A DNA stretch of 63,278 bases, filler included, from Reclinomonas americana ATCC 50394 (lineage: Eukaryota), in assembly GCA_048213135.1 (NCBI GenBank). It is 17 parts of 17 records of this genome, joined end to end, with 100 filler letters (N's around TTAATTAATTAA, not from the genome) between each part and the next. Parts side by side here need not be neighbours in the genome. Positions count along the whole stretch, not along the records: positions 16,899 to 30,140 come from AFZH01023130.1; 16 more parts are not named here. One strand, written 5' to 3'. Positions 6,701 to 45,463 of this stretch are shown here, piece by piece (positions within the stretch are counted from its first letter, which is position 1; every line of letters starts with the position of its first letter). The notes below the pieces were generated by a model, which was not told where the DNA came from, searched no databases, and saw only the letters and a program-made list of their open reading frames with translations. The translations under genes and the position numbers were made by a program.

Positions 6701-6909
6701 TGGCACTTGGCGAGCTCGAGTGGCATGACGACATGGGCCAGCTGGGCAACATGGCAGGCGAGGCGGTGTTGCTGACAGTGCGTCATCCGGCGACTGTGGC
6801 GGCGGCGGCGGCGGCGGCGGCGGCAGTGGTGGGAGAGGTGAATGGGCACGTCGCGATCGGTGAAGCATCATCGTCGTCGTCGGTGGCGGTGGAAGGTGGA
6901 GAACGATAG
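3058..6909 (+). CDS. Fusion of a class-V aminotransferase/cysteine desulfurase-like domain with a TtcA-like tRNA 2-thiolation (PP-loop) domain
   Basis: Exons 3058-3372, 3963-4606, 4671-6075, 6154-6909. N-half motifs: YMDWTASGR, YGNTHT, EHHSN, DYACAAP, SPHKFVGGPG (PLP Lys), SRGGCVCAAPY (catalytic Cys region). C-half motifs: GLSGGKDS, CAFCSRMKRG, LAQHLDD, IRPL, CPGC. The desulfurase C-terminal part and the PP-loop lie in the same exon and frame. Confidence 0.92.
3520..3619. other. Assembly gap with artificial six-frame-stop linker (first of 16)
   Basis: N-run + TTAATTAATTAA + N-run. Others begin near 7598, 15186, 16799, 30141, 31412, 34622, 37086, 39575, 43017, 44654, 46340, 49480, 51281, 56449, 60505. 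Confidence 0.97.
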
Positions 6910-9942: not shown

Positions 9943-14024
<4,082 letters not shown>

Positions 14025-14447: not shown

Positions 14448-16386
14448 TCACTTGCGCTTGCGCTCCATCAGCTCCAACACGCGTCGTCGGAAGATCTCTG
14501 GGTGGAAGTAACTGTTGGCGTCAAAGAACTCTGCCGCATCCCACTCGGCCTTCAGCAGCAAGCCACCACCGGCGGCCTCCAGCGGCGACATGCGGTACGT
14601 GTTCCACAGTGAGGTGCTGCTGGGGAATAGCGCAATCTCCACCTCGTACTGATGACCGAAGCGCTCCATGCCAGTGCTCACGCGCACCGTCTCCTGTGTA
14701 CGCACAAGCACATATTGTAGTTGAGCTTCGGGGAAGAAGGGAGGGTGGGACGGAAGCACATGCACGCAACAGCCGGCGACTTGGCCACAAAGATCGAATG
14801 CTTCTCCACAAAGTACTCGGAGACAATGAGGCCGAGGTAGATGGCGAAAAAGGCGCTGGAGCCGAGCACCAGCTTGAGGTAGCCGCCATTGTCGGTGAGG
14901 TTGCCGGCGAAGAAGTAGTTCCAGATGGCCAGTGCCACGGCGCCGAGCATCACAAAGATGCGCACAGTGGAGGTGGTGCGGTCGAGGCGCATGCCGCGGT
15001 CGCGACAAAAGTACTGTAGGGTGAGGGGGGAGAATAAAGGAGAGGGAGGATGAGAAGGAGAAGGTGAAGGAGAAGGTGAAGGAGAAGGAGAAGGAGGAGG
15101 AGAAGGAGGAGGAGATGAGAAGAAGAGACAGTAAGAGTGCAGAGGAGCGAGAGAAAGTGAGGAGGAGAGAGAGAAGGAGAGAGCAANNNNNNNNNNNNNN
15201 NNNNNNNNNNNNNNNNNNNNNNNNNNNNNNTTAATTAATTAANNNNNNNNNNNNNNNNNNNNNNNNNNNNNNNNNNNNNNNNNNNNGGTTATGGGAGAAA
15301 GAGAAGATGAGGTGAGGTGGAGAGGAGGAAGTACGGGGAGGGTGGGGAGGAAGACAGAAGAGAAGCGAGAGAAAAGCAGTGAAGGGAGGGGAGAGACGGG
15401 CGGTGATGATGGAAAGTGGAGATGGAGAGGAAGAAAGAGAGGAATGTGCAGCAGGAGTGAATGAGAAGACAGCGATGAAGGAATGAAGCTGGAGACATTG
15501 GAGAGACGAGAAGAAGGGAGACGGAGAAAGAGCGAGAGGAGGAGGAGAGGAAGACAGAGAGAAGGACGGAGAGAAGGGAGAAAAACAGGAAAGGAATGAG
15601 GCTGGAGGCAGTCGGGAGAGATGCGAAAGAGGAAGAGAAGAAGGGGAGGGCAGGGGGAGTAAGAGACAAGGGAGAAGTAGGAAGATGCAGAGGAAGAGAT
15701 GGAGAGTGCGACAGGGGAGAAGGTGAAGGAAACGCAGAAGGCGGGGAGAGAGAGAATGAAAAGGGAAGAACAGAGGGAGGAAAAAGGTGGAGAGTGAGAG
15801 GAATAGAAGAAGGCAAGGGAGGGAGAGTGAGAGACAACGGAGAAAGTAGATAGATGCAGAGGAAGAGATGGAGGAAGATGGAAACGACAGAGATGTTGAG
15901 AGAAAGGGAAGAAGAGCAGTGGAGGGCGACCAGAGTAGTAGTTACATGATGGAGAGTACGAAGGGCGAAGATGAAGGAAACGCAGAAGGCACAGAGAGAG
16001 AGAGAGAGAGGAGAAGAAGAGATGTGTATGAGAGAGAGAGAAAGAAATGGGAAAGAAAGAGAGGCGGAGAGTGAGGGGAAGAGAACAAGAGATGCACGAA
16101 AGACAGGACCTATGGATGAGGAGACGAGAGAGAACGAGATAACAAGAGAAGCGAGGCAAATTGGAATGCATGCTCAAATCACTTGCCCTTCTCCCCCAGT
16201 CTCTCTCTCCCCCTCTTCTACACACACAAACGACGCAACATCCTCCAACTCCTCGTCCATTACTCGCTTCAGCCCAAACGCATCGTACAAGTGCACACGT
16301 GGCGGCGATGGCAACTGCGCGCCACTGGCCGAGGCCGCGTGCTCTGCCAGAGAGGCAACCGCCGCGGCCTGTCCAGGCGGCGCCAT
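14448..16386 (-). CDS. SPCS2: Signal peptidase complex subunit 2 (SPC25)
   Basis: VHLYDAFGLKRVMDE, two TM helices, EKHSIFVA, VSTGMERFGHQY, AEFFDANSYFH, C-terminal KRK. Three exons across one gap. Confidence 0.82.
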
Positions 16387-16928
16387 CTCTAACAACACAG
16401 CACACATGCAAGAAGAGAGAGTGAGAGAGTGGGGGGAGAGTGGGGGAGAGAGAGACATGTCGCTTTGGTGGTGGTGGCGCATAAGGAGCGAGTGTGCGTG
16501 TGAGTGTGGATGCAGTGTGAGACAAGTCAACCTGCGGCGCTGATGGGATCCGTGACGCTGCTCATCAGCTGGAGACTTGAATAGTGAGGAACGTCGCGAG
16601 TGGGACTGTACAGTGCGACGTCGTATGCATGAGTTTCTTTTGTCTTGTCGGAGGGTGAATGCAGAACGAGTGGGGCGCGAGCCCGGCTACACAACCGCAC
16701 CTCTAGCTAAACTTTTGCCGCAAGCTATTGACGGAATCGCGCAGCAATGAGTGTCATCTGCAGCTGCAGATCCGGAATATATATACTATATCTGTGGCNN
16801 NNNNNNNNNNNNNNNNNNNNNNNNNNNNNNNNNNNNNNNNNNTTAATTAATTAANNNNNNNNNNNNNNNNNNNNNNNNNNNNNNNNNNNNNNNNNNNNCA
16901 CATGTTTTGCACTTGCAAAACACAGTCA

Positions 16929-19900
16929 TCAAGGGCTCACGGCGGCCGCAGCCGACGGTGGCGCCAGCACAATCGTGTGATATCCGTACTCGTCTCCCGA
17001 GTCGAAACGGGTGATGGACGTGCGACAGAGTGGGCACTCGCCGCGTCGCTCGACAACTTGCTGCGCACAGTTGCGGCACATCACCTCGTGGCCGCACGGA
17101 CGCAATCGAGTGTCGCGCACATCGTAACAGAGAACGCAGGCGCGACGGCACGACAACGCAGTGAGATCGCGCATCTCCGTCACCAGTTCGTCGGCACTCG
17201 GGCGGCGGTTAGGTCGATAGTCGACGCAGCTGTTTCTCGAATCATGAGGGACGACCTACACAGTGCGCGTATGCAACGGGGCTGATGCTTACTACTCACC
17301 GCATGGCCAAGCGCACAAGACGGCGACAGACGGATGTGGGCCATTCTCGGCCGACCGCGGTGTCGGCCAGCTGCACAGCGGACTCATCGAGTTTCGCCGC
17401 GTCGTCGTCCTCCACCATCGCCTCGATCCACTTGTGTACCTCGGCAATTGGCTGACCGGAGAACAGCGCAGAATGCCACGCAGTGCCTGCGGATCGGCAT
17501 AGTTGTGGTCGCCTGCAAACTGCACCGAGAGGTGTGTCTGCTTGTCGCCACACCCCCATGATGAGGACATTATCGGTGGGAAGACGAGGGACAGGAAAGG
17601 AGACTCACCCCGCCGGTGCGGAACCAGTGCGCGATTCCCAGGTCCGAGATGCATGCCTGACCCCGCTCGTCAAACAGAATGTTGGCTGGCTTCAGGTCGC
17701 GGTGAATGACTGCGAATCATGGTTATCAAGCGAGGTCAATCACTCACAACCGAGTTCACGGAGACTCACCATTCTGGGTGAAGGCGAGAACAGAATGCAG
17801 TGACAGTGAGAGGGAAGGAGAGTGAGAAACGAAGTCAACAGCAAGCTGCACAACGACACCACAAACCATCCTGTACAACAAGAAGAAAGGATGAGAAACG
17901 ACCACATGCACCTGACTTCTTATTGCAGCAGCTGCCTCACCTGTGCAATGCCGCCACGATCTCCGAACAACGAAGCAAACATGTCATCCGTTCCTCAATG
18001 GCCATGACAGGCAATCCGAGCGCTTGATACTCCAACAACCGGTGCTCGAGGTTGTGCTCACTTGTCAATGATCGAGCGAAGAACAGCACATCAGCAACAA
18101 CGAATCAAAAGAACTGCATGTGACCAACACCAACCTCATGGCCTCCAGCACAATGCACTTTTCTCCACGGTCCGATTCGGCGAAGCCAATCATGCGCACC
18201 ACACCAGGCACCGTCACACTCTTCAGTTTCTCCAACTGCATTCCAGCAAGTTACGATAAACACACAGGGGGATGATCACCTGGTCTCCGCACACACGCAG
18301 TGCTCACCTCATTGGAAAACGACTCAATGCACCACGGCGCATCGCTGTCGAACACCTTGACGGCCACCTGCTGCTCCTTCCATGTGCCAGAAAACACGCT
18401 CCCTTGTCCGCCCGTGCCAAGACGACGAGCAAAGCCATTTGTCATGGCGCCGATTTGCTCCCAGGTGAACGCCGTGAGCGGAACTGTAGTACTGCTGGTC
18501 AGCGAAGAAACGCACAAGCAGTCTTTGCAACACACTCAGTCGTGCTCACCACGATGGTTGAGCTCGTGCTGCGCGGTGGCCAAGTCTGCGGCCAGTCGCT
18601 TTGCGCGGTCGTATTCTTGCTGGCGTTGCTCGTCCATTCGCTCCAAGGAGACGCGAAGAGCCGCACATTCCTCACGCAAGCGCTGGATAGCGGCCTCTTC
18701 CTGCGGTTGCCCATGCGCCCTCTGCTCCTCCAGCTCCTGCTGCAGGCGCGCAACGTTCGCTGCGCTTGCGCGATCGGCCGCTTGTGGAGCCTCCAATTGC
18801 GCGGTCAACTGCTCGACTCGCTGTCGCTGCTCCTCCGCCTCGCGTCGCGATTGCGTAACGGTGGCCTCGTGTCGCTGCACCAGCTGCTGCGCTGCATCCA
18901 CTTGGGCGGCCCGCTCGCGGACCGCCGCCTGTTGCTCTTCCACCTCGCGCGGCGGTTGCGCGATGGTTCCTTCGTGCTGCTGCGTCGTCGCCCGCTGTAG
19001 CGCGAGGACACGCTGCAGCTGGGCAATGGTGGCCTGTGATTGCGACTGCTGGCTGCGAAGCGTGGTCACCTCCTGCGTCTGCCGCTGCACGAGGCGCTGC
19101 TGCTCGGTCAAGTCGTGTTGCAGTTGTGCGTTTGCTGCCTCCGGCTGCTGCTCGCGGGCCGAGTTCACCGGTGGCGGCTGGTTGGTGCACAGAGAGGTCA
19201 GTGTTGGGCAGGCATCGGCACTTGTCGAGATTCTCTCACCGGAAAATGCACTGGTGGTGAAGCCGATGCAAAAAACGCAGAGGAACCTGTAGTGGCGGAT
19301 GAACAACAAGAGTGTTGAGGATGAATTAAAAGAGTGCGTCACAGACGTACCAGATGGGGAAGTTATTGAAAAAACCTTGCGGAGTGTCGCAAGGGCTGCG
19401 AAGGCGCTGATTATACGGTCGGCAGTACGCATGGTGGCTTCGCGGTCCGGTCCCAGCTCGCGACGACGCAGTGGCAACACCTCGAAGACATCCAACGCCT
19501 CCTCCAGATCCAACCCGCCTGCTCTGGCCACCGCCGTTGCCATGATTTGCATGCTCACCAGCCAGTCCAGGTGATCCTTGTCGACCAGCAATTCAACCTT
19601 CCGGCGCAAAATGTCGCGCATAATCCGAATCGACTCCTCGCACTCCTTGTTGTCATCGAGCGCCTGTGCCAAGTGGTGCCACGTATTCAACGCATCCTCG
19701 ACGTCCTCCTTGGCCCCATAGCGCTCCTGCTTCTCCGCCGTGTCACGCAGAAGTGGAATGGCCTCGCGATGCCGCCCGAGCTGCCACAGCGCATTGCCCA
19801 TGCTGGAAGCCACAATCAATGTCTCCTTGTGAGTCGCACCCGACACGCGCTTTTTCCTCTCCAGCACATCCTCGAACACCGGCAATGCGCTCTGCGCATC

Positions 19901-20239
19901 TCCCGAATTCAAGAGTGCATTCGCGTAGTTGTGTGCACACGCAAGAGTCCATGCATCATCGGGGCCGCGCAAGTCCTCAAAGTCTCGCATGCAGCGAGCG
20001 AGGAGAGGTGCCGCGGTGGCATAGTCACCACTGCGGCAGTGCCGTCGGGCCTCATCGTACTGCCGCTTGACCTCCTCGAAAGTCGGCGCATCACGACCTT
20101 CGCTCCGTTCACCGTCGGGGCTGCGCATGTCCTCAAAATCTCGCCAGCAGGTACCATACAGGCGCGCGGCGGCGGCATAGTCACCACTGTGTAAAAGCTG
20201 CAGGGCCTCATCATTGACCTCCGCGAAAGTCCGACGCAT
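16929..20239 (-). pseudogene. TPR-coiled coil-RLK/Pelle-like kinase-RING, copy 1 (frameshifted)
   Basis: Same exon structure as copies 2 and 3 and HRD intact. A 43-nt deletion near 17467 removes PSADVYCLGLILLQ (subdomain IX) and shifts the frame. Confidence 0.82.
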
Positions 20240-21161
20240 GACCTCCGCGCTCCGACGCAAGACGACTCGCCTGTCGGACAACGATGCATTGTGGCGGACA
20301 GCAAACTTCCTGTGGTTGTTGCCCCCTTATTACACACTGTATGCACTGCAATATCCAAACTCTTTACGCAGATCACGCGAGGGGTGTGGAAGAAGTGTTC
20401 ATGCAGTCCAATGCAAGATGATCGACGTCGATCGCGATCGCGAGTCTGCTCACGTCGCTTCGTTGAGACAGCGAGCGACGTCGTTCCCATTCTATGCAAT
20501 GCTTGGATATTATCGAAACAGTTGCCGTCGGTCTTGCCTGCCAACAAATATGTTTGAGATCCTGTTCTTGCCAGATCGCCACAACACCCACTCGCCATCA
20601 TCCTTCGCCGCCACAGAAAATCGCTCTCACGGTCTTGCCTAGTCGCATGCTCATATGTCACCGGCGACCAGTTGCTGTCGCGCGTTCGTCTCCCTCGATC
20701 GCTCACGATCTTGCTGCGCTCTCTGCATGCAAGTCTCTTTCGATCGCTGAGTCGAGAAAGCGAAAACTGTGGAGTATAGCATAGGTCTCTTCATCGATTG
20801 ACAATAATGTCTCGTGCATGTGCACCTTTACCTCGCGTGCATTCAGCCTCCCTCGTTCGCACCTCACGATCGTGTTCCTCTCGCACGCACTGCGATCTTC
20901 ACTCGCCATATCGCAGCCTCTCTCACTCAGACTCTCCAGAGTCTCTGCACCTGTGCACTCCCTATTTTCGATCGCTCTTTGAGGGCCAAAGAGAAAGAGT
21001 GAAAGGGGAGAAATACTGGTCATCTCCATCGATACAGCCCCACAGCTTCTTGCTTGATCGCTCCTCACACTCTCCCTTCTTTATCCCTCTCTCTCCTCTC
21101 GCTCCCTCTTCCCTTCTTGCGCACACAATCACAATCTCCATCGGCCGATCTGACTTGTCAG

Positions 21162-21290
21162 TGCCACTACGCCTGTAACAACAACTACCCGGCCGTGGCC
21201 GCTGGCACTTACCTCGGCAACGGCAACTGCTGCGGCAGCTGCAGCGGTCCCACTTGCAGCCAGTCTCCCTCTGACAGCTGCACGCAGTAG
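21162..21290 (+). other. Orphan Cys-rich terminal exon (42 aa, 7 Cys)
   Basis: ctgacttgtcag acceptor, then CHYACNNNYPAVAAGTYLGNGNCCGSCSGPTCSQSPSDSCTQ*. A frameshifted paralog lies at 25681-25803. No upstream exon was identified. Confidence 0.55.
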
Positions 21291-21358
21291 ACGTGCACGT
21301 GTGATTCTTGCCGAATAAAATCTGTAAATACATGTCTTGCACTTGCAAAACACAGTCA

Positions 21359-24300
21359 TCACGGGCTCACAGCTGCCGCAGCCGACGGTGGCGCCAGCAC
21401 AATCGTGTGATAACCGTACTCGTCTCCCGAGTCGAAACGGGTGATGGACGTGCGACAGAGAGGGCACTCGCCGCGCCGTTCGAGCACTTGCTGTGCACAG
21501 TTGCGGCACAACACCTCGTGGCCGCACGGACGCAGTCGAGTGTCGCGCACATCGTAACAGAGAATGCAAGCGCGACGGCATGACAACGCAGTGAGATCGC
21601 GCATCTCCGTCACCAGTTCGTCGGCACTCGGGCGGCGATTGGGTCGATAATCGACACAGCTGTCTCTCGAATCATGAGCGACGACCTACGCAGTGCAAAC
21701 AAGCACGGGGCTGATGCATTCTCACCGCATGGCCAACCGCACCAGACGGCGACAGACGGATATGGGCCATTCCCGGCCAACTGCGGTGTCGGCCAGTAGC
21801 ACAGCGGCCTCATCGAGTCTCGCCGCGTCGTCGTCCTCCACCATCGCCTCGATCCACTTGTGTACCTCGGCAATCGGCTGACCGGAGAACAGTTGCAGCA
21901 GAATGAGTCCAAGGCAGTACACGTCGGCAGTTGGGTGCAGAATGCCACGCAGTGCCTGTGGATCGGCATAGTTGGGGTCGCCGGCAAACTGCACCGAGAG
22001 GTGTGTCTGCTTGTCGCCACACCCGTGAGGACATTCTCGGTGAGCAGGCGAGGGAAAGAGAGTGCATACTCACCCCGCCGGTGCGGAACCAGTGCGCGAT
22101 TCCCAGGTCCGAGATGCATGCCTGACCACGCTCGTCAAACAGGATGTTGGCCGGCTTCAAGTTTCGGTGAATGACTGCGAATCATGGTGAATAAGCGACG
22201 AGGTGACATCACTCACAACCGAGTTCACGGAGACTCACCATTCTGGGTGAAGGCGAGAGAACAGAATGCAGTGACAGTGAGAGGGAAGGAGAGTGAGAAA
22301 CGAAGTCAACAGCAAGCTGCACAACGACACCACAAACCATCCTGTACAACAAGAAGACACGATGAGAAACGAGCACATGCACCTGACTTCCCACTTCACC
22401 AGCTGCCTCACCTATGCAATGCCGCCACGATCTCCGAGCACCGAAGCAAGCATGTCATCCGTTCCTCAATGGCCATGACGGGCAATCTGAGTGCTTGATA
22501 CTCCAACAACCGGTGCTCGAGGTTGTGCTCGCTTGAGAATGATCGAGAGAAGAACCGCACATCAGCAACAAACGAGCCAGAAGAACTGCATGCAACCGAG
22601 AGAATTCGATATCCACCAACCTCATGGCTTCCAGCACAATGCACTTTTCTCCACGGTCTGACTCGGCGAAGCCGATCATGCGTACCACACCAGGTACAGT
22701 CACACTCTTCAGTTTCTCCAACTGTACCCAGCAAGAAGCGATAAACACACATGCGATGATCACCTGGTCTCCCCACACGCAGCGCTCACCTCATTGGAGA
22801 ACGACTCGATGCACCACGGCGCATCGCTGTCGAACACCTTGACGGCCACCTGCTGCTCCATCCATGTGCCAGAAAACACGCTCCCTTGTCCACCCGTGCC
22901 AAGACGACGCGCAAAGCCATTTGTCATGGCGCCGATTTGCTCCCAGGTAAAGGCCGTGAGCGGAACTGGAAGGTTGCTGGTCAGTAGCGGCTCACAAGCA
23001 ATTATCGCCACACACTCACTTATACTCACCACGATGGTTGAGCTCGTGTTGCGCGGCGGCCAAATCAGCGGCCAGTCGCTGTGCACGGTCGTATTCTTGC
23101 TGCCGCTGCTCGTCCATTCGCTCCAGGGAGACTCGAAGAGCCGCACATTCCTCACGCAGGCGCTGGATAGCGGCCTCTTCCTGCGGTTGCCCATGCGCCC
23201 TCTGCTCCTCCAGCTCCTGCTGCAGGCGCGCAACGTTCGCTGCGCTTGCGCGATCGGCCGCTTGTGGAGCCTCCAATTGCGCGGTCAACTGCCCGACTCG
23301 CTGTCGCTGCTCCTCCGCCTCGCGCCGCAATTGCGCAACGGTGGCCTCGTGTCGCTGCACCAGCTGCTGCGCTGCATCCACTTGGGCGGCCCGCTCGCGG
23401 ACCGCCGCCTGTTGCTCTTCCACCTCGCGCGGCGGTTGCGCGACGGTTCCTTCGTGCTGCTGTGTCGTCGCCCGCTGTAGCGCGAGGACACGCTGCAGCT
23501 GGGCAATGGTGGCCTGTGATTGCGACTGCTGGCTGCGAAGCGTGGTCACCTCCTGCGTCTGCCGCTGCACGAGGCGCTGCTGCTCGGTCAAGTCGTGTTG
23601 TTGTTGTGCGTTTGCTGCCTCCAGCTGCTGCTCGCGGACCGAGTTCACCGGTGGCGGCTGGTTGGTGCACAGAGAGGTCAGTGTTGGGCAGGCATCGGCA
23701 CTTGTCGAGATTCTCTCACCGGAAAATGCACTGGTGGTGAAGCCGATGCAAAAAACGCAGAGGAACCTGCAGTGGCGGATGAACAACGAGTGTGGAGGAT
23801 GAATTAAAAGAGTGCGGCACAGACGTACCAGATGGGGAAGTTATTGAAAAAACCTTGCGGAGTGTCGCAAGGGCTGCGAAGGCGCTGATTATACGGTCGG
23901 CAGTACGCATGGTGGCTTCGCGGTCCGGTCCCAACTCGCGACGACGCAGTGGCAACACCTCGAAGACATCCAACGCCTCCTCCAGATCCAACCCGCCTGC
24001 TCTGGCCACCGCCGTTGCCATGATTTGCATGCTCACCAGCCAGTCCAGGTGATCCTTGTCGACCAGCAATTCAACCTTCCGGCGCAAAATGTCGCGCATA
24101 ATCCGAATCGACTCCTCGCACTCCTTGTTGTCATCGAGCGCCTGTGCCAAGTGGTGCCACGTATTCAACGCATCCTCGACGTCCTCCTTGGCCCCATAGC
24201 GCTCCTGCTTCTCCGCCGTGTCGCGCAGCAACGCAATGGCCTCGCGATGCCGCCCGACCTGCCTCAGCGCATTGCCCATGCTGGAAGCCGCAATCAATGT

Positions 24301-24708
24301 CTCCTTGTGAGTCGCACCCGACACGCGCTTTTTCCTCTCCAGCACATCCTCGAACACCGGCAATGCGCTCTGCGCATCTCCCGAATTCAAGAGTGCATTC
24401 GCGTAGTTGTGCGCACACGCAAGAGTCCATGCATCATCGGGGCCGCGCAAGTCCTCAAAGTCTCGCATGCAACGAGCGAGGAGAGGTGCCGCGGTGGCAT
24501 AGTCACCACTGCGGCAGTGCCGTTTGGCCTCATCGTACTGCTCCTCGAAAGTCGGCGCATCACGACCTTCGCTCCGTTCATCGTCGGGGCCGCGCATGTC
24601 CTCAAAATCTCGCCAGCAGGTACCATACAGGCGCGCGGCGGCGGCATAGTCACCACTGTGTAAAAGCTGCAGGGCCTCATCATTGACCTCCGCGAAAGTC
24701 CGACGCAT
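21359..24708 (-). CDS. TPR-coiled coil-RLK/Pelle-like pseudokinase-RING, copy 2
   Basis: Exons splice in frame. The catalytic loop reads IHRNLKPAN (CAC CGA AAC near 22161-22169). C-terminal CILC..PCGHEVLCRNC..CPLCR. Confidence 0.82.
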
Positions 24709-25865
24709 GACGACTCGACAGTCGGACAACAACATGAAGGACGATGCATTGTGGCGGACAGCAAACTTCCTGTGGTTGTTGCCCCCTTATTACACACTGC
24801 ATGCACTGCAATATCCAGACTCTTTGCGCAAATCACGCGGGATGTGGAAAAAGTGTTTGTGCAGTCCAGTGCATGACGATCGCGATCGTCGACGGCGAGT
24901 ACTACGTCTGCTCATGTTGTGTCGTTGCGACAGCTCTCGGCGAAAGAATCCACCAACTACGCAATGCATGGATATTATCGAAACAGTTGCCGTCGGTCTT
25001 TCCTCCCTCGATGTGCCATACCAAACATGTTTGAGATGCCAGATCTCCGCAGCGCGAACATGTTGCAACCAATCGCCAGCATCCCCACCACAGAAGCTCG
25101 ATCTCACACTCTTTCCTGGTCGCTTGTTCATATCTCACTGGCGATCATTTACTGTCACCCGTAGTCTCCCTCGATCGCTCGCGTGCACCACAATGTCTTG
25201 CGTGTGTTCTCTGCATGCAAGTCTCTTTCGCTGAGTTGAGAGAGTGAAAACTGTGGTGTAGAGCAGAGGGAGTCTCCATCTATCGACCATAAAGTCTCGT
25301 GCATGTGCTCCTTTATCTCTTCCCTTCAGCCTCCCTCGTTCGCACCTAGCTTGACGATACTCTCGCGCGCACTGCAATGTTCACTCGCCATATCGCAGCC
25401 TCTCTCACTCAGTTCCCCTCGCACTGTAACGCAGTCTCTATGCCTGTGCACTCCCTATTTGCCTTTCCTCGATTGCTTTTTTGCACTATGATTGGGTGCC
25501 AGAGAGAAAGAGAGAAAGGGGAGAGAATGAGGCGCGATGAAGAGAGGGAGAGATACTGATCATGTCTCTACAGCCTCACAGCTTCTTGCTTGATCGCTTC
25601 ACTCTCTCCCTTCTTTATCCCTCCCTCTCCCCTTCTTGCGCACACAATCACAGTCTTTATCAGCCGATCTGACTTACCAGTGCCACACTACGCCTGCAAC
25701 AACTGCGCTTCTGTGGCCGCTGACACTCACCTCGGCAACGGCAACTGCTGCGACAGCTACAGTGGTGCCACCTGCAGTCAGTCTCCCTCTGACAGGTTGC
25801 ATAACAGACGTGATTCTTGTCAAGATGAAATCTGTAATTACATGTTCTGCTTGTTAACACAGTCA

Positions 25866-28800
25866 TCACGGGCTCACAGCTGCCGCAGCAGACGGTGGCG
25901 CCAGCACAATCGTGTGATAACCGTACTCGTCTCCCGAGTCGAAACGGGCGACCGCAGTGCGACAGAGAGGGCACTCGCCGCGCCGTTCAAGCACTTGCTG
26001 CGCACAGTTGCGGCACATCACCTCGTGGCCGCACGGACGCAGTCGAGTGTCGCGCACATCGTAACAGAGAACGCAGGCGCGACGGCACGACAATGCAGTC
26101 AGATCGCGCATCTCCGTCACCAGGTCGTCGGCACTCGGGCGGCGATTGGGTCGATGGTCGACGCAGCTGCAGCACCTCGAATCATGAGGGACGACCTACG
26201 CAATGCTGATATGCAACGGGGCTGATGCTTACTACTCACCGCATGGCCAATCGCACAAGACGGCGACAGACGGACGTCGGCCATTCCCGACCGACCGCGG
26301 TGTCGGCCAGTAGCACAGCGGCCTCATCGAGTCTCGCCACGTCGTCGTCCTCCACCATTGCCTCGATCCATTTGTGTACCTCGGCAATTGGCTGACCGGA
26401 GAACAGTTGCAGCAGAATGAGCCCGAGGCAGTACACGTCGGCACTCGGGCGCAGAATGCCACGCAGCGCCTGTGGATCGGCATAGTTGTGGTCGCCGGCA
26501 AACTGCACCGACAGGTGTGTCTGCTTGTCGCCACACACCCGTGAGGACATAATCGGTGGGAATGTGAAGGACGGGAGCGTGCACACTCACCCCGCCGGTG
26601 CGGAACCAGTGCGCGATTCCCAGGTCCGAGATGCATGCCTGGCCGCGTTCATCAAACAGGATGTTGGCGGGCTTCAAGTCGCGATGAATGACTGCGAATC
26701 ATGGTTGACAAGCGAGGTAACAACACTCTCAACCGAGCACACGGAGACTCACCATTCTGGGTGAAGGCGAGAACAGAAAGCAGTGACAGTGAGAGAGATG
26801 GAGAGTGAGTGAGCAATATCATCACCAAGTTGCACAGCAGCAACACAAACCATCCTGCACAACAAGAAGAAACGATGAGAAACGAGCACATGCACCCGAC
26901 GTCCTGTTGCCTCACCTGTGCAACGCTGCCACGATCTCCGAGCATCGAAGCAAGCATGTCATCCGTTCTTCGATGGCCATGACGGGCAATCCGAGTGCTT
27001 GATACTCCAACAACCGGTGCTCGAGGTTGTGCTTGCTTGAGAATGATCGAGAGAAGAACAGCACATCAGCAACAAACGAACCAGAAGAATTGCATGTAAC
27101 CAAGAAAACTCGATCTCCACCAACCTCATGGCCTCCAGCACAATGCACTTTTCTCCGCGGTCTGACTCGGCGAAACCAATCATGCGTACCGCACCAGGCA
27201 CCGTCACACTCTTCAGTTTCTCCAACTGCACCCAGCAAGAAACGATAAACACACAGGGGGATGATCACCTGGTCTCCTCACACGAAGACTCTCACCTCAT
27301 TGGAGAACGACTCGATGCACCAAGGCGCGTCGCTGTCGAACACCTTGACGGCCACCTGCTGCTCCATCCACGTGCCAGAAAACACGCTCCCTTGTCCGCC
27401 CGTGCCAAGACGACGAGCGAAGCCATTTGTCATGGCGCCCACTTGCTCCCAGGTAAAGGCCGTGAGCGGAACTGCAAAACGCTGGTCAGCGGGCCGTGCA
27501 CAAGCAGTCTTTGCCACACACTCACTCTCACTCACCACGGTGGTTGAGCTCGTGCTGCGCGGCGGCCAAATCAGCGGCCAGTCGTTGTGCGCGGTCGTAT
27601 TCTTGCTGGCGCTTCTCGTCCATGCGCTCCAAAGAGACGCGAAGAGCCGCACATTCCTCGCGCAGGCGCTGGATAGCGGCCTCTTGCTGCGGTTGTCCAC
27701 GTGCCCTCTGCTCCTCCAGCTCCTGCTGCAGGAGTGCAACATTCGCTGCGCTTGCGCGACCGGCCTCTTGTGCTGCATCCAACTGAGCGGTCAGTTGCTC
27801 GACTCGCTGTCGTTGCCCCTCCGCCTCGCGCCGCAGTTGCGTGATGGTGGCCTCGTGTTGCTGCACCAGCTGCTGTGTTGCATTCATCTGCGTGGTCCTC
27901 TCGCGGATAGTGGCTTGATGTGTCTCCAGCTCGCGCCGCAGTTGCGCGATGGTGACCTCGTGTTGTCGCGCCTGGTGCTGTGCTGCCTCCACCTGGGCAG
28001 TCTGCTCGCGGATAGTGGCTTGCTGATCGTTCTTCTCGCGTTGCAGTTGCGCAATGGTGGCATCGCGACGCTGCACTTGCTGCTGCGCTGCATCCACTTG
28101 GGCGGCCCGCTCACGGACCGCTTCCTGTTGCTCTTCCACCTCGCGCGGCGGTTGTGCGACGGTTCCTTCGTGCTGCTGCGTCACCGCCAGCTGTTGCGCG
28201 AGGTCACGCTGCAGCTCGGCGATGGTGGCCTGCGACTGAGATTGCTGGTTGCGAAGGGCGGTCAGCTCCTGCGTCTGCCGCTGCACGAGGCGCTGCTGTT
28301 CGGCCACATGGCGTTGCAGTTGTGCGTTTGCTGCCTCCAGCTGCTGCTCGTGGCCCAGCGGCTGGTCGGTGCACAGAGAGGTCAGTGTTGGGTAAGCATT
28401 GGCACTTGTCAGTTTTCTCTCACCGGAGAACGCACTGGCGGAGGAGTGGATGCGGACGCAGAGGAAGCTGCAGTTGCGGATGATCAACGAGTGTGGAGGA
28501 TGAAACAAAAGAGTGCGTCACAGACGTACCGGATGGGGAAGACGTCGAAGAAGCCTTGAGGAGAGCGGCCAGCTTCGCGCGGGTGTTGGTAATGCCGTCG
28601 GCTGTGCTTTTGGTGTGTTCGTGGTTCGGCCCCATCACGCGGCGACGGAGTGTCAACACCTCCTCGAAGATCTCCAACGCCTCCTCCAGGTTGGCCAAGC
28701 CGCCTGCGTTGAACAGCGTCACTCCCATGTTATGCATGCTCGCCAGCGTGTCTGGGTGATCCTCGCCCAACACTTCACGACTCCGGAGCACAAGGTCGCG

Positions 28801-29292
28801 TGAAATCCGGATCGACTCCTCGCACTCCTTGTTGTCATCGAGCGCCTGTGCCAAGTGGTGCCACGTATACAACACATTCTGGACGTCCTCCTTGGCTCCG
28901 TAGCGCTCCTGCTTCTCCGCCGTGTCACGCAGCAATGCAATGGCCTCGCGATGCCGCCCGAGCCGCCTCAGTGCGTCGCCCATGCAGGAAGCCGTTTTCA
29001 ATGTCTCCTTGTGAGTCACACCCAACACGCGCTTCCTCCTCTCCAGCACATCCTCGTACACCGGCAATGCGCTCTGTGCATCTCCTGAATCCATGAGTGC
29101 AAGCGCGTACATGTATGCACACGCCATCGTCGACTCATTGTCGGGGCCGCGCAAGTCCTCAAAGTCTCTCCAGCAGGTTCCGAATAGGCGCGAGGCGGTG
29201 GCATAATCTCCGCCGTTAAAATGCTGCATGGCCTCATCGTACTGCTGCTTGATCTCCTCGAAAGTCCGCGCAAGACCTCCGCTCCGACGCAT
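25866..29292 (-). CDS. TPR-coiled coil-RLK/Pelle-like kinase-RING, copy 3 (HRD intact)
   Basis: 42-aa-type TPRs (LGEDHPDTLASMHNMG) and a Gln-rich coil. Kinase motifs: [81 protein letters not shown]3HC4 RING at the C-terminus. Confidence 0.88.
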
Positions 29293-29993
29293 GATGACTC
29301 GCCTGTCGGACAACAAGAAGGACGATGCATTGTGGCGGACAGCACCAGCTTCCTGTCGGTGTTGCCCCACTGCATGCACTGCAATATTCACTCTTTGCGC
29401 AGATCACGAGAGGGATGTGGAAAAAGTGTTTGCGCAGTCCAATGCAAGACGATCGACGTCGACCGCGAGTCTGCCCATGTTGTGTCGTCGGGACAGCAAG
29501 CGCTCTCGGCGAGAGAATCCACCAAGTACGCAATGCATGCATGTTATCGAAACAGTAGCCGTCGGTCTTTCCTGCCTCGCTGCGATGTGCCATCGCAACT
29601 CATGTACGGCTCTGCAGCCTCGCATGACGATGAAATCGGCATGCGAGAGACCATTCACCTCTTGCCCCTGCCCGGTGGTCACGAACACGTACAACACCCA
29701 CTCGCCATCATCCTTTACCACCACAGAAACTCGCCTTCGCTTTGCAATGTAAGGCACGCAATGAAACACTCTCACACAAAAGAATACCAATCACGAGCGC
29801 AGGGGCGATCCACTGCGCCGTCCACTCATATGCACCGTCTCCCGCCGCAGTACCTCCAACAGCGTGTTCGCCGACTCGACAATCTGCGGCACAGGAAGAG
29901 GGTTGGACGCGTCGAAAGCGAACAGCTCGATTCACAGAGTCTTACTCTCACGATCGATCGTTCAGCAACAGCATCTCGCTCATACAAGACCGC

Positions 29994-30082
<89 letters not shown>

Positions 30083-30344
30083 CTACGTCTCGTACTCGTC
30101 TCTACTCTCTCGTCTCTACTCTCGTCTCTACGTACTACGTNNNNNNNNNNNNNNNNNNNNNNNNNNNNNNNNNNNNNNNNNNNNTTAATTAATTAANNNN
30201 NNNNNNNNNNNNNNNNNNNNNNNNNNNNNNNNNNNNNNNNACGTTACCGTTACCTTCCTTACCGAACGTACGTACTACGTTCCGTTACGACGAACCAACG
30301 ACGACTACTCCGTCGTCCTACTAACTAACGAACCGACCGCACCC

Positions 30345-30383
<39 letters not shown>

Positions 30384-30505
30384 CTCCCTCTTTCCCTCTT
30401 GCATGATCGCTTGCATCTCTCAGGTGATGATCGATACTCGCGTGAACTCTCCCTCAATTGCTCACTCGTTGTCTTCCGCAATAAACCCGTGTCTTGGCGT
30501 CTGTG

Positions 30506-31085
30506 CTCTCTGCATATCTCCCTCGATCGCCAAGTCGAGAAAGAGAAAATGGTTGAGCGAGGAGCGAGAAGGGAGTGGAAGATCAACCGAGTCAGCGCGA
30601 CAGAGAGGAAGGCGAAAAAGTGGAGCGACAGAGCTTGGAGAGACATCTCTCAACGCAGTCTCTTGCGCTCCCTCACTTTCTCTCTTCTTTTCCATACATT
30701 CTATATCCTCACTGCCTGTCTCGATAGTAGCTCGACAAGTTGCTCTCGTGCATACTGCAGTCTAGATCGCTAATTCGCAGCCTCTCTCGAACTCAGTTCG
30801 GGTAACACAGTCTTTTGTGCGTTCACTCTCTGCATGTCTCTCTCGATCGCCAAGTCGAGAAAGAGAAAATGGTTGAGCGAGGAGCGAGAAGGGAGAGTAA
30901 GAGGAGCAATCAACTGAGTCAGCGCGACAGAGAGAAAAGCGACAGTGTTTGGAGAGACATCGCTCAACGCAGTCTCTTGCGCTCCCTCACTTTCTCGCTT
31001 CTTTTCCATACATTCTATATCCTCACTGCCTGTCTCGATAGTAGCTCGACAAGTTGCTCTCGTGCACACTGCAGTCTAGATCGCT
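30506..31085. repeat. ~260-bp direct repeat (30506-30771 and 30826-31085)
   Basis: Near-identical tcgatcgccaagtcgagaaagagaaaatgg...ctgcagtctagatcgct. Related to the array spacer near 20715-20935. Confidence 0.9.
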
Positions 31086-31520
31086 TTCACACAGCCGCTC
31101 AATCACAGCCTATCTCAAGCAAGCTTTGTCTCCCCGATCGAATGTTTGAGTGTTAGGGAGAATGACACAGAGGGAAAGAGAGTGAGGCGCGATCAACCAC
31201 GCGAGACTGAACTTCTCCAAGGCGCTTCTCGCTTGATCGCTCCTCTCTCTTTTTTCTTTTTCTCTCATCTCATGTATGAACGCTGTCACATCTCTGTCTC
31301 TCAGCCCCATCTCTGCCTGATCGCTCCTCTCTCTGCTTTTTGTAACTCACTTCCTCCTCTGTCACAGCCGCAATCGCCTGATCGTTCATCCTTCCCACTT
31401 TCCCCTCTATCNNNNNNNNNNNNNNNNNNNNNNNNNNNNNNNNNNNNNNNNNNNNTTAATTAATTAANNNNNNNNNNNNNNNNNNNNNNNNNNNNNNNNN
31501 NNNNNNNNNNNCTCCTCCTC

Positions 31521-44548: not shown

Positions 44549-45463
44549 GACGCGACGACGTACGTACGTACGTACGACGACGACGACGACGACGACGTAC
44601 GTACGTACGTACGTACGTACGTAACGTAACGTAAACGAAACGAAACGTAAACGNNNNNNNNNNNNNNNNNNNNNNNNNNNNNNNNNNNNNNNNNNNNTTA
44701 ATTAATTAANNNNNNNNNNNNNNNNNNNNNNNNNNNNNNNNNNNNNNNNNNNNAACAAACGGGTAGAGAAGTAGACGAGAGAGAGAGAGAGAGAGAGAGA
44801 CGAGAAAGGAAGGAGAGAAAGAGTAAAGGACTGCGAGAACGAGACGAGGAGGAGAGAGAGAGGGGGGAGGAGAGAGAGAGGTAGAGAAGAGAGAGGCTGC
44901 AGAGGAACAGCTGTCGAGGAGACAAACAATGAGAATGCAATCGATATGTGAGGAACAAAGCAAGAAACAGACAAGCAGACAGACAGACTGCGAGGAGAGA
45001 GAAGAGAGGCTGCAAAGCAAAAGCAGCACCTCCTCTGCACCACTACAGAACACACTGCAGCTCCTCACAAATGCCAACCACAAATGCAAACCAACAACGA
45101 CTGATACAATGCCACAGACAGAGAAATGCACCTCTCCCTCCCTTCCCGCTCTCTCTCTCACCCTCTCCTTATACCTCTCTCTCTTACACACACAATCACC
45201 TGCACATTGAACAACAATTTCGCCGCCTTGCCCGCCGTCGATCGAAACGTGCCCCCTTCACCACCACCACCGACGTTAATCATCAACCGACGTCGCGCGC
45301 CCTGTGTCACAGGGGACGCAGCAGACGAAGAAGCAGCGTGTGCGAGCGGCGACTTTTTCACTGTCATGTGCATGTAGCGCGGCATGGAGTCCCAGTCGAC
45401 GGTTTGCCGCCCGCCCTCGCGCACGGGAGAGGCGAATGGGTCGGCGACTACCCGCACAGTCAT
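40522..45463 (-). CDS. Hypothetical multi-exon protein with one EF-hand-like loop and a long low-complexity C-terminus
   Basis: Chain of GT-AG-bounded exons, e.g. FNVQ|FNKYEEVPRDVIDRAFNVIDTGGDDVITLEELAVF, LFSRAQVSRR.., DYIDLLEARKADF.., DKYLEFDG. Some internal junctions are uncertain; spans two gaps. Confidence 0.6.

What the first reader, a model, noticed from the sequence alone, without database searches (positions are those of the whole stretch)
16929..29292. Tandem array of single-chain TPR sensor-coiled coil-RLK/Pelle kinase-RING proteins: candidate protist intracellular immune-receptor locus
Seen: hand-splicing joins the TPRs, Gln-rich coil, kinase and C3HC4 RING into one protein, present in three tandem copies. 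Known: FTWEQV..TNGF..LGxGG, QTHLS..AG and LAMRC..P..RP match the RLK/Pelle/IRAK clade used in plant and animal innate immunity. The 42-aa LGxDHPDTLxSM TPR type is used as a sensor in fungal NLRs, and coil-kinase-E3 recalls plant U-box kinases. Inference: an NLR-like receptor that replaces the NTPase with a Pelle kinase plus ubiquitin ligase and evolves by birth and death.
Basis: partly seen in the sequence, partly recalled or inferred. Interest (0 to 1): 0.85.

Follow-up and report, generated by a model that had tools for sequence, protein, structure and literature searches.

The report
Tandem TPR–coil–kinase–RING gene family
Three neighbouring copies of a gene in an unidentified microbial eukaryote each join a peptide-binding repeat domain, a long helical linker, a plant/animal immune-type protein kinase and a ubiquitin-ligase finger in one protein, a layout closest to plant U-box kinases; an immune role is so far only a guess.

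Summary
One contig (16899-30140) carries three head-to-tail paralogues on the minus strand. Each has 10 exons encoding a KLC-type TPR domain, an S/P linker, a Gln/Glu/Ala/Arg-rich helical region, a protein kinase and a C-terminal C3HC4 RING.

The last exon holds both kinase subdomain XI and the RING. All introns are short (38-169 nt), and 26 of 27 are GT-AG. The kinase is under strong purifying selection (dN/dS 0.03-0.10). So a single-chain coding gene is well supported, but no RNA data could be found.

No copy is pristine:
- Copy 1 has a 43-nt frameshifting deletion.
- Copy 2 has HRN in place of HRD.
- Copy 3 has one GA splice donor.

The kinase groups with an animal IRAK4-like protein and plant RLKs. 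IRAK4 and plant RLCKs are the best solved matches for two of its exons. No other TKL references were available, so RLK/Pelle membership is likely but unproven.

The closest known architecture is the plant PUB-VI/RLCK-IXb family (helical domain, kinase, U-box), not NLRs. There is no NTPase, and the immune-receptor reading is untested. Verdict: a new variant of a known kind, of moderate interest.

The parts
25866..29292 (-). Copy 3 gene, 10 exons, 912 aa. It has the full catalytic motifs (GTGGQG, VAVK, HRD, DLG) and the RING. Exons (high..low): 29292-28530, 28467-28424, 28361-27536, 27471-27296, 27225-27125, 27035-26916, 26756-26731, 26691-26591, 26520-26240, 26166-25866.
   Evidence: model and motifs; dN/dS
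21359..24708 (-). Copy 2 gene, 10 exons, 886 aa open frame, all donors GT. Exons: 24708-23829, 23766-23720, 23657-23030, 22965-22790, 22721-22621, 22531-22412, 22242-22217, 22174-22074, 22006-21726, 21659-21359.
16929..20239 (-). Copy 1, with the same 10 exons but frameshifted, so a probable recent pseudogene. Its 3' end lies 30 nt from the contig edge.
28530..29292 (-). Copy 3 exon 1: KLC-type TPR domain, 254 aa, 11 helices.
   Evidence: Pfam TPR_12 E 3.6e-28 and TPR_10 E 9.4e-28; AF2 pLDDT 94.3; Foldseek 4y6c and KLC1
28424..28467 (-). Copy 3 exon 2: 44-nt Ser/Pro/Ala linker micro-exon (47 nt in copies 1 and 2, an in-frame 3-nt difference).
   Evidence: conserved GTACGT and GTGAGA donors; 62-64 nt flanking introns
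27536..28361 (-). Copy 3 exon 3: helical Gln/Glu/Ala/Arg-rich region of 275 aa (209 aa in copies 1 and 2, because copy 3 has about 66 extra residues of internal repeats).
   Evidence: Q 20-21%, few Pro/Gly; internal repeat; dN/dS 0.24
26240..27471 (-). Copy 3 exons 4-9: protein kinase domain, subdomains I-X.
25866..26166 (-). Copy 3 exon 10: kinase subdomain XI (C..P..RP) and the C3HC4 RING (about 25944-26078) in one exon, then a 30-aa tail and the stop codon.
   Evidence: Pfam zf-C3HC4_3 E 3.5e-10; PDB MEX3C 1.2e-7, cIAP2, XIAP
17465..17469 (-). Site of the 43-nt deletion in copy 1 exon 9. It removes the alpha-F segment and shifts the frame.
22161..22163 (-). AAC (Asn) codon replacing the catalytic Asp of HRD in copy 2.
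26729..26730 (-). GA instead of GT at the donor after the 26-nt exon 7 of copy 3.
24709..25412 (-). Upstream and intergenic region of copy 2, alignable with the regions upstream of copies 1 and 3. Its indels are not multiples of three, so it is non-coding (promoter and 5' UTR).

Best explanation
This is a young, tandemly duplicated family of cytoplasmic multidomain signalling proteins in an unidentified GC-rich eukaryote. Each protein runs: KLC-type TPR domain, S/P linker, long helical region, RLK/Pelle(IRAK)-like Ser/Thr kinase, C-terminal C3HC4 RING.

Shown: the gene structure, the domain identities, purifying selection on the kinase and RING, faster evolution and repeat-number change in the TPR and helical parts, and one decayed copy.

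Inferred: it works as a dual kinase and E3 ligase like plant PUB-VI/RLCK-IXb proteins. The TPR groove would bind a peptide ligand or partner. The helical region would bring two or more chains together. Trans-autophosphorylation would then switch the output between kinase activity and RING-dependent ubiquitination. The HRN copy would act as a catalytically weak partner or modulator. Whether the input is a pathogen molecule, a stress cue or an endogenous partner is unknown.
For: Gene model: of 27 introns, 26 have GT donors and all 27 have AG acceptors. Introns are 38-169 nt, most 62-89 nt. Kinase subdomain XI and the RING lie in one exon.

Coding and selection:
- Kinase dN/dS is 0.08 for copy 2 vs 3 (45 synonymous, 14 non-synonymous changes in 294 codons) and 0.03-0.04 for copy 1 vs 2 or 3.
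- The TPR is at 0.56-0.64.
- One TPR repeat reaches a local ratio of 1.6-2.6.
- Differences concentrate at third codon positions.

Domains: Pfam TPR_12/TPR_10, Pkinase and zf-C3HC4_3. The TPR model has pLDDT 94.3 and matches Podospora and KLC TPRs. The RING's best solved matches are active E3s: MEX3C, cIAP2, XIAP and CBL.

Kinase affinity:
- C-lobe exon: of the 60 solved sequences listed (65 matched at E up to 1), 26 are IRAK4 (E 2e-6), about 23 are plant RLK/RLCK, 10 are non-TKL and 0 belong to another TKL family.
- G-loop exon: best match is SYMRK.
- Full spliced domain: of the 10 proteins with the best matches among those fetched, 9 are from Viridiplantae (7 land plants, 2 Closterium).
- Tree: the kinase groups with an Artemia IRAK4-like protein plus plant RLKs at SH-aLRT 99.

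Architecture parallel: PUB33 has UspA, a helical domain, an RLCK kinase and a U-box. It has dual activity, forms homomers, and autophosphorylation toggles kinase against E3 (passages read). A kinase plus U-box protein (P0030) is the 4th best full-domain match. Grouping with the U-box type is not rejected (AU p 0.45).
Against: - There is no transcript or protein evidence.
- Each copy has a blemish: a frameshift, HRN, or a GA donor. The array could be decaying.
- Two kinase exons have no solved-structure match.
- The catalytic-loop exon is generic; its best matches are MKK7, GRK2 and Chk1.
- The activation segment reads ADPQ instead of APE.
- The kinase sits on a long branch (1.39) and its place relative to IRAK and RLKs is unresolved.
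- The tree has no Raf, MLK, RIPK, LRRK or STKR references.
- Oligomerisation, ligand binding and E3 activity are all inferred.
- Only 3 copies are seen, and the genome could not be searched.
Confidence: 0.55

Rival explanations
1. One reading: an NLR-like intracellular immune receptor in which the TPRs sense a pathogen molecule and the kinase plus RING replace the NTPase as the switch and executor. It would evolve by birth and death under pathogen pressure.
For: - The TPR type is the one found in STAND/NLR proteins: 6 of 19 TPR-coil hits carry NB-ARC, and Foldseek's top hit is a set of Podospora TPR-like repeats.
- The TPR evolves much faster than the kinase, with a local dN/dS above 1.
- The copies are in a tandem array with one pseudogene and mosaic dS.
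- Cereal tandem-kinase and kinase-fusion proteins are accepted non-NLR intracellular receptors (abstracts seen).
- Plant RLCK-IXb proteins are targeted by pathogen effectors.
Against: - There is no NTPase and no known death-fold or TIR domain.
- The TPRs are N-terminal and number only about five.
- Only three copies are seen.
- The local dN/dS above 1 rests on 27 non-synonymous against 3.7 synonymous changes. By my own rough estimate it is not significantly above neutrality, so relaxed constraint explains it equally well. Copy 2's TPR model is weaker there (pLDDT 61-76).
- There are no expression or challenge data.
- The plant relatives characterised so far act as regulators or targets, not as receptors.
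Confidence: 0.2
2. A decaying array. The family was functional until recently, but all three copies here are now non-functional or on the way out.
For: - Copy 1 has a 43-nt frameshift.
- Copy 2 has lost the catalytic Asp.
- Copy 3 has a GA donor, without which exon 7 reads into a stop.
- Copies 1 and 2 have a degenerate last TPR.
Against: - Low dN/dS in the kinase (0.03-0.10) at dS 0.2-0.3 shows long-standing constraint.
- The copy 2 frame is fully open, and an HRN kinase can still act as a scaffold (recalled: ErbB3).
- One non-canonical donor may be tolerated.
- Other copies may exist elsewhere, since a 170-nt copy of the upstream region lies on another contig.
Confidence: 0.15
3. The kinase is not RLK/Pelle. 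It would belong to another TKL lineage, or to a lineage-specific family with bacterial-like catalytic-loop features, and the IRAK/RLK likeness would be convergent or an artefact of sampling.
For: - The catalytic-loop exon matches MKK7, GRK2 and Chk1 best.
- An identical [12 protein letters not shown] stretch and a similar G-loop occur in a bacterial metagenome kinase (L001).
- The kinase sits on a long branch.
- The branch that groups IRAK4-like with RLKs and leaves the query outside has only 82 support.
- There are no other TKL references in the tree.
Against: - The C-lobe exon finds no other TKL family among solved structures, even though, by recall, Raf, MLK, RIPK, LRRK2 and TGF-beta receptor kinases are in the PDB.
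- An unbiased scan of 1.84 billion representatives returned mostly plant RLK-type proteins: 38 of 63 fall in the RLK-like clade.
- The kinase is separated from 22 non-RLK rows at SH-aLRT 99.
- A tree with the query inside the plant RLKs is as likely as the free tree (AU p 0.52).
Confidence: 0.25
4. The TPR-coil and kinase-RING parts are two adjacent genes rather than one.
For: There are no RNA data. In copy 1 the TPR and coil lie in one uninterrupted 596-aa ORF that ends just before the kinase exons.
Against: - Only 64-66 nt separate the coil exon from the first kinase exon. Consensus GTGAG and CAG sites and a phase-1 junction are conserved in all three copies.
- The kinase part has no start codon of its own at a conserved position.
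- The same order of helical domain then kinase occurs in plant RLCK-IXb.
Confidence: 0.05

Closest known systems
Plant PUB-VI/RLCK-IXb U-box kinases (e.g. Arabidopsis PUB33, tomato RLCK-IXb-1)
   Same: The module order is the same: N-terminal domain, long alpha-helical/coiled-coil domain, RLK/Pelle-type kinase, C-terminal RING-fold E3 domain. They are cytoplasmic. Some paralogues lack catalytic residues and modulate the active ones. A kinase plus U-box protein and a PUB-like fragment are among the best matches of this kinase, and sisterhood is not rejected.
   Different: The E3 domain is a zinc-binding C3HC4 RING, not a U-box. The N-terminal domain is a KLC-type TPR, not UspA. Kinase identity is only about 30%, and clade membership is unresolved. 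The organism does not look like a plant by the one neighbouring gene examined.
Arabidopsis KEG (Keep on Going)
   Same: A single polypeptide carries both a RING E3 and a protein kinase domain plus protein-interaction repeats. Its phosphorylation state controls self-ubiquitination (passages read).
   Different: In KEG the RING is N-terminal to the kinase, and the repeats are ankyrin and HERC2-like, not TPR. KEG is a conserved singleton rather than a tandem family.
Animal IRAK4/Pelle with TRAF6 or Pellino (recalled, not tested here)
   Same: An IRAK-type kinase is coupled to a RING-type E3 and to coiled-coil oligomerisation. IRAK4 is the best solved match of the C-lobe exon.
   Different: In animals these are separate proteins assembled through death domains. 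No death domain is found here, and kinase and E3 are fused.
STAND/NLR proteins with TPR_10/TPR_12 sensor arrays (fungal and bacterial NB-ARC-TPR)
   Same: The TPR subtype is the same: 6 of 19 sequence hits carry NB-ARC, and Podospora TPR-like repeats are the top structural match.
   Different: There is no NACHT or NB-ARC NTPase. The TPRs are N-terminal and few. The proposed switch would be a kinase and E3, not nucleotide exchange.
Bacterial Ser/Thr kinases with C-terminal TPR_10/12 arrays
   Same: Kinase and the same TPR subtype occur in one chain: 8 of 19 TPR-coil hits.
   Different: The domain order is reversed and there is no RING. Their kinase domains form the outgroup clade, separate from this kinase.
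Cereal tandem-kinase and kinase-fusion immune receptors (abstracts seen) and plant BSK kinases with TPR (recalled)
   Same: RLK/Pelle-type cytoplasmic kinases are fused to extra domains and act in immunity or signalling without an NTPase.
   Different: Their partner domains differ, none carries a RING, and no relationship was tested here.

Membership tests
RLK/Pelle (IRAK) kinase family | The kinase domain falls inside the monophyletic IRAK plus RLK clade in a phylogeny that also holds the other TKL families. | tested here: inconclusive
   In the tree of 73 domains, the query groups with an Artemia IRAK4-like protein plus Viridiplantae RLKs at SH-aLRT 99 against 22 non-RLK rows. It sits on a long branch, and the node that excludes it has only 82 support. 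A tree with the query inside the plant RLKs is not worse (AU p 0.52). No Raf, MLK, RIPK, LRRK or STKR references could be fetched.
RLK/Pelle (IRAK) kinase family | The nearest characterised kinases by sequence are IRAK or RLK members. | tested here: met
   - C-lobe exon: IRAK4 at E 2e-6, then PBL2, BIK1, Pto, FERONIA, BRI1 and CERK1, with 0 other TKL families among the 60 listed.
- G-loop exon: SYMRK at E 0.002, including the FT.E..TNGF flank.
- Against: the catalytic-loop exon is generic, and two exons have no hit.
RLK/Pelle (IRAK) kinase family | Complete catalytic motifs of an active ePK (G-loop, VAIK Lys, HRD Asp, DFG Asp). | tested here: met
   Copies 1 and 3 have GTGGQG, VAVK, HRD and DLG. 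Copy 2 has HRN. In all copies APE is replaced by ADPQ.
Plant PUB-VI/RLCK-IXb | [quoted passage not shown] | tested here: not met
   Pfam gives zf-C3HC4_3 and zf-RING_2 and no PF04564. All eight Cys/His zinc ligands are present (sequence, alignment).
Plant PUB-VI/RLCK-IXb | [quoted passage not shown] | tested here: met
   Gene model, composition of the helical region, and the plant architecture as described.
Plant PUB-VI/RLCK-IXb | An N-terminal UspA domain. | tested here: not met
   Pfam finds a TPR domain there instead.
Plant PUB-VI/RLCK-IXb | The kinase lies in the RLCK-IXb clade. | tested here: inconclusive
   Holding the query together with P0030 (kinase plus U-box) and P0055 costs 1.9 lnL, AU p 0.45. 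This is not rejected, but it is not shown either.
NLR/STAND receptors | A central NACHT or NB-ARC P-loop NTPase. | tested here: not met
   No such Pfam match appears in any of the 19 ORF pieces of the three copies.
KLC-type TPR (Pfam TPR_10/TPR_12) | 42-residue helical hairpin repeats that match the family profiles and fold. | tested here: met
   Pfam E down to 3.6e-28. The AF2 model has 11 helices at pLDDT 94.3. Foldseek gives KLC1/2 and Podospora repeats at E 2e-8, probability 1.00.
C3HC4 RING E3 ligases | C-x2-C-x(9-39)-C-x(1-3)-H-x(2-3)-C-x2-C-x(4-48)-C-x2-C zinc ligands (pattern recalled). | tested here: met
   All eight ligands are present with spacing x2, x10, x1, x3, x2, x10, x2 in all three copies. 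Pfam zf-C3HC4_3; best PDB matches MEX3C and cIAP2.
C3HC4 RING E3 ligases | E2-dependent ubiquitin transfer. | not testable with these tools
   This needs an in vitro ubiquitination assay.
KEG-type RING-kinase | N-terminal RING, then kinase, ankyrin and HERC2-like repeats. | tested here: not met
   The domain order is reversed and there are no ankyrin or HERC2 matches. KEG architecture as given.

The most novel reading that the evidence does not exclude
The protein would be a self-contained sensor, kinase and E3 immune or stress module in a non-plant, non-animal eukaryote. An IRAK/RLK-lineage kinase is physically fused to a RING ligase and to an NLR-type TPR sensor. On this reading, the kinase-E3 partnership seen as separate proteins in animals (IRAK with TRAF6 or Pellino) and as RLCK-U-box fusions in plants would be an ancient, recurrent design. 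The TPR array would be the variable ligand-recognition part, diversifying by tandem birth and death.
Probability: 0.15. Interest if true: 0.75.

Novelty: new variant of a known kind. Interest (0 to 1): 0.45.

Why it matters
Proteins that are both a kinase and a ubiquitin ligase are rare. They have only recently been dissected in plants, where PUB33 shows autophosphorylation toggling kinase against E3 output.

A family with the same helical-kinase-E3 core, a different E3 finger (RING) and a different input domain (KLC/NLR-type TPR), in an organism that does not look like a plant, would show one of two things. Either this core is older and more widespread than thought, or it has been assembled more than once.

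It would also give a compact system for asking how ligand binding, oligomerisation, phosphorylation and ubiquitination are coupled in one chain. If the immune reading were true, it would add a non-NTPase receptor type outside plants.

No relative above about 35% identity over a whole kinase domain turned up in a library representing 15 billion proteins, so the family seems lineage-specific.

Tried and rejected
- RNA evidence: the look-up of sequencing runs listed no run of any kind for 20200-30140. None was listed.
- Own genome: none is held, so no genome-wide family count was possible. A tblastn of the spliced copy 3 protein against the window found only the three copies.
- Earlier notes of this scan: nothing by place, sequence or words.
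- Rfam: no match in the window.
- Word-index protein searches:
  - The TPR-coil ORF gave only generic TPR proteins, at most 34% identity.
  - The kinase-XI plus RING exon with lengths 'longer' gave nothing.
- Metagenome scans:
  - The C-lobe alignment gave no relative.
  - The G-loop exon gave three loci at 47-52% over at most 49 residues. The two whose ORFs I read (L001, L002) are prokaryote-like contigs carrying an ordinary Ser/Thr kinase; L003 was not examined.
- Complex prediction on two copies of the helical exon: no verdict, score 0.01. This is neither support for nor evidence against self-association.
- A crude Fourier test for heptad periodicity was uninformative.
- ESM Atlas on the DUF285 ORF gave only bacterial DUF285 clusters below 0.9 and no taxonomic lead.
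- Rejected gene-model alternatives:
  - A single 193-198 nt first intron. It would need a GC donor in copy 3, and the middle 44/47-nt segment differs by an in-frame 3 nt.
  - A 125-nt version of exon 7. That stretch has 1- and 2-nt indels between copies.
  - An 8-nt exon 7, which has a weak donor.
  - An upstream coding exon. The candidate acceptor is lost in copy 2.
- Whole-domain searches of PDB or Pfam with the spliced kinase were not done, because joined sequence may not be typed into tools. The whole domain was compared only locally with proteins already fetched.
- Literature: two full-text searches found no paper describing a TPR-kinase-RING protein. One search used 'rlk pelle', irak, kinome, tpr, stramenopiles. 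One search used tkl, ring, tpr, kinome, 'novel domain'. Neither proves absence.


Full report
**Setting.** The window is not one stretch of chromosome. It is 17 contigs (1.2-13.2 kb) joined by spacers of 44 N, TTAATTAATTAA and 44 N. The finding lies entirely in the longest contig, 16899-30140. Neighbouring contigs are therefore not evidence of genomic context. No whole genome is held for the window. No sequencing run was listed, and the scan's earlier notes hold nothing on it.

- Self-comparison shows three head-to-tail units on the minus strand: copy 1 at 16899-20930, copy 2 at 21000-25412 and copy 3 at 25538-30140.
- Copy 1 vs 2 is 90.3% identical over 3.5 kb. Copy 2 vs 3 is 87.4% over 2.5 kb. 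The 5' (TPR) part of copy 3 is 82-83% identical to the others (alignment).
- Pfam on raw stop-to-stop ORFs finds, in each unit, TPR_12/TPR_10 (E 1e-20 to 4e-28), fragments of Pkinase/PK_Tyr_Ser-Thr, and zf-C3HC4_3 (E about 1e-10).

**Gene model.**
- The three-way alignment shows exons as blocks whose indels are absent or multiples of three. Introns carry 1-2 nt indels and GTGAG...CAG ends.
- My first model had nine exons. I then split the first intron in two. Three things favour the split. Two strong donors (GTACGT, GTGAGA) are conserved in all copies. The 44/47-nt middle segment differs between copies by an in-frame 3 nt. The resulting introns (62-64 nt) also match the others.
- The final model has 10 exons. 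Copy 2 gives 886 aa and copy 3 gives 912 aa.
- Of 27 introns in the three copies, 26 have GT donors and all 27 have AG acceptors. Lengths run 38-169 nt.

**Arguments for one transcription unit.**
- The last exon contains both kinase subdomain XI (...RCVD.RPNRRPS...) and the RING.
- Only 64-66 nt separate the helical exon from the first kinase exon, with a conserved phase-1 junction.
- The spliced kinase aligns end to end with plant RLK kinase domains, with only 3-6 residue gaps around the 26-nt exon (32% identity, E 2e-39 to P0040).
- Transcript evidence is still missing.

**Is it coding, and under what selection?**
- Between copies 2 and 3, kinase dN/dS is 0.08 (dS 0.25, 294 codons). The RING and tail give 0.23, the helical region 0.24 and the TPR 0.56.
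- Copy 1 against copies 2 and 3 gives 0.03-0.04 for kinase exons 4-8.
- Intron divergence (JC 0.17) is of the order of dS.
- Sliding windows show the kinase at 0-0.23 throughout. One TPR repeat (alignment columns 180-260) reaches 1.6-2.6, with 27 non-synonymous against 3.7 synonymous changes. By my rough estimate that is not significantly above 1, so it may be positive selection or simply lost constraint.
- Copy 3's TPR folds with pLDDT 94.3 as 11 helices. Copy 2's gets 79.8, with its extra N-terminal hairpin and its last repeats at 61-76.
- Copies 1 and 2 share an extra N-terminal repeat. Copy 3 has about 66 extra residues of internal repeats in the helical region.
- dS between copies 1 and 2 is 0.034 in the TPR but 0.245 in the kinase. 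This mosaic points to gene conversion or unequal crossing-over.

**Lesions.**
- Copy 1 has a 43-nt deletion in exon 9 near 17467. It removes the alpha-F segment and shifts the frame. Its downstream differences are still mostly at third codon positions (4/0/15 in exon 10), so the lesion is recent.
- Copy 2 is open but reads HRN for HRD.
- Copy 3 keeps all catalytic motifs but has GA instead of GT at the donor after the 26-nt exon. Read-through or the next GT gives a stop.
- So there are 2 open frames out of 3, and no copy is without a question mark.

**What kind of kinase?** Joined sequence may not be sent to the remote tools, so I tested single exons remotely and the whole spliced domain locally.

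Against all solved structures:
- The C-lobe exon hits IRAK4 first (26 of the 60 listed sequences, E 2e-6). About 23 plant RLK/RLCK entries follow (PBL2, BIK1, Pto, FERONIA, BRI1, CERK1, SYMRK, LysM kinases). Ten are non-TKL (PKMYT1, ULK4, CDPK), and none belongs to another TKL family.
- The G-loop exon hits SYMRK best (E 0.002), including the FT.E...T..F flank. Raf, BMPR1B, MLK4 and PTK6 follow at 0.05-0.14.
- The catalytic-loop exon is unspecific, with MKK7, GRK2 and Chk1 first.
- Two middle exons find nothing.

Against 1.84 billion representative proteins, the C-lobe exon gave 63 hits at E up to 0.001. The top hit is 33% identical, and no hit exceeds 51% over the matched stretches.
- Of the 28 of these that I looked up by name, 25 are from Viridiplantae (18 land plants, 7 Closterium and Tetrabaena).
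- One is an Artemia protein whose cluster is named IRAK4-like/JAK2-like, one is a metagenome fragment, and one has no name.
- One of the 25 (P0035) I count as a land plant, but its organism was cut off in the output.

The whole spliced domain scores best against plant RLKs: P0040 at 110 bits, then 81-71 bits.

A maximum-likelihood tree of 73 domains places the two open copies on a long branch.
- They are sister to a 49-row clade containing the Artemia IRAK4-like protein and the plant RLKs.
- The joint clade has SH-aLRT 99 against 22 other kinase rows. These include the bacterial TPR-kinases, which served as outgroup.
- The node that excludes the query has only 82 support. A constrained tree with the query among the plant RLKs is not worse (AU p 0.52).

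Conclusion: the nearest relatives are RLK/Pelle/IRAK. Formal membership is untested against Raf, MLK, RIPK, LRRK and STKR, which I could not fetch.

IRAK-like TKLs outside plants and animals are already in print. Five are reported in Phytophthora infestans, all predicted inactive, plus one TKL with TPRs (PMC3019232, passages read). A preprint counts IRAK4 among the kinases inferred for the last eukaryotic common ancestor (LECA) (passage read).

**The other domains.**
- The TPR exon's top structural matches are the Podospora anserina 'nearly identical TPR-like repeats' (4y6c, 4y6w) and the kinesin light chain TPRs, which bind cargo peptides.
- Its sequence hits are bacterial NB-ARC-TPR proteins (6 of 19) and bacterial kinase-TPR proteins (8 of 19), at no more than 34% identity.
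- The RING has all eight zinc ligands. It matches MEX3C (E 1e-7), cIAP2, RNF141, XIAP and CBL.
- The helical region is 20-21% Gln and 12% Glu with few Pro or Gly. Its self-association is inferred only.

**Closest known system.**
- The best single-domain match of the C-lobe exon is P0055, a metagenome fragment with the same ...LG.ILLQL..GQP... stretch.
- P0030, a Colocasia protein with a kinase and a U-box, is the 4th best whole-domain match.
- Holding the query with these two costs 1.9 lnL (AU p 0.45).
- Plant PUB-VI/RLCK-IXb proteins have the order UspA, long alpha-helical domain, RLCK kinase, U-box.
- PUB33 is both an active kinase and an active E3. It forms homomers and also heteromers with the inactive PUB32. 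It is proposed to switch between kinase and E3 output by trans-autophosphorylation through the coiled coil.
- Relatives of PUB33 are targeted by pathogen effectors and can negatively regulate immunity. The group is said to be about 1,500 million years old (preprint 10.64898/2026.02.10.704836, passages read; PMC12803775, passages read).
- KEG is another plant RING-kinase, with a different order and different repeats (PMC5385374, passage read).
- None of the 63 kinase hits carries a TPR or a RING, and 1 carries a U-box. None of the 19 TPR-coil hits carries a RING.
- Two full-text searches found no description of a TPR-kinase-RING protein.
- I therefore file this as a new variant of the kinase-E3 fusion kind: a RING for the U-box, a TPR for UspA, and a different lineage.

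**Mechanism.** The steps below are all inferred; the report shows only the parts list and the selection pattern.
- The TPR groove binds a peptide or partner.
- The helical region holds chains together.
- Kinase domains phosphorylate each other.
- This changes RING output.
- The HRN paralogue could modulate an active one, as PUB32 does for PUB33.

**The immune-receptor reading.** It is allowed but not tested. There is no NTPase. Only three copies are seen. The fast TPR evolution can be explained by decay in copies 1 and 2.

**Organism.** Unknown. A neighbouring contig holds a fused Aminotran_5 plus PP-loop gene. Its best relatives (35-40% identity) come from Thecamonas, a diatom, cnidarians, a sponge and a testate amoeba, with no plant among the named hits. 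It may not even come from the same genome region. GC is 52-60% across the contig.

**Verdict.** The novelty is a new variant of a known kind, and interest is moderate.

Noticed in passing
whole window; spacers e.g. 16799-16898 and 30141-30240: The window is a chain of 17 separate contigs joined by N44-TTAATTAATTAA-N44 spacers. Features on different contigs are therefore not known to be neighbours.
   Followed up: yes
window 1-2529 (-): An 843-aa uninterrupted ORF runs off the contig end. It is made of 8 DUF285 (BspA-like leucine-rich) repeats, Pfam E 4e-269. The Atlas look-alikes are bacterial DUF285 clusters, all scoring below 0.9.
   Followed up: partly
window 3864-6906 (+): A gene fuses a class-V aminotransferase (cysteine desulfurase or selenocysteine lyase type) to a PP-loop ATPase. 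Its best relatives, at 35-40% identity, are equally fused proteins of Thecamonas, a diatom, cnidarians, a sponge and the amoeba Pyxidicula.
   Followed up: partly
window 11144-11695 and 13241-13834 (+): Two ORF pieces match the carboxylesterase family (E 5.5e-28 and 2.5e-13). They are probably exons of one gene.
   Followed up: no
window 52640-53938 (+): A 433-aa ORF has a weak match to Transposase_21 (tnp2/CACTA type, E 4e-6, below Pfam's cut-off).
   Followed up: no
window about 46090-46262 (+), contig 44754-46339: A copy of about 170 nt (89% identical) of the region just upstream of the family's start codon, in reverse orientation. Homology stops about 25 nt before where the ATG would be, and unrelated sequence follows. 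It may be a dispersed promoter or 5' UTR fragment, or a remnant of a fourth locus.
   Followed up: partly
window 29950-30140, and contigs 15287-16798 and 30241-31411: Long (GA)n/(CT)n microsatellites and Ser/Leu-type low-complexity runs lie at contig ends. They probably explain why the assembly breaks there.
   Followed up: no
L001 5992-6897 (+): A prokaryote-like metagenome contig encodes a Ser/Thr kinase with the same [12 protein letters not shown] catalytic loop and a similar RLGTGGQG.VF.GT G-loop. It is otherwise unrelated. It shows that these two motifs are not specific to RLK/Pelle kinases.
   Followed up: partly
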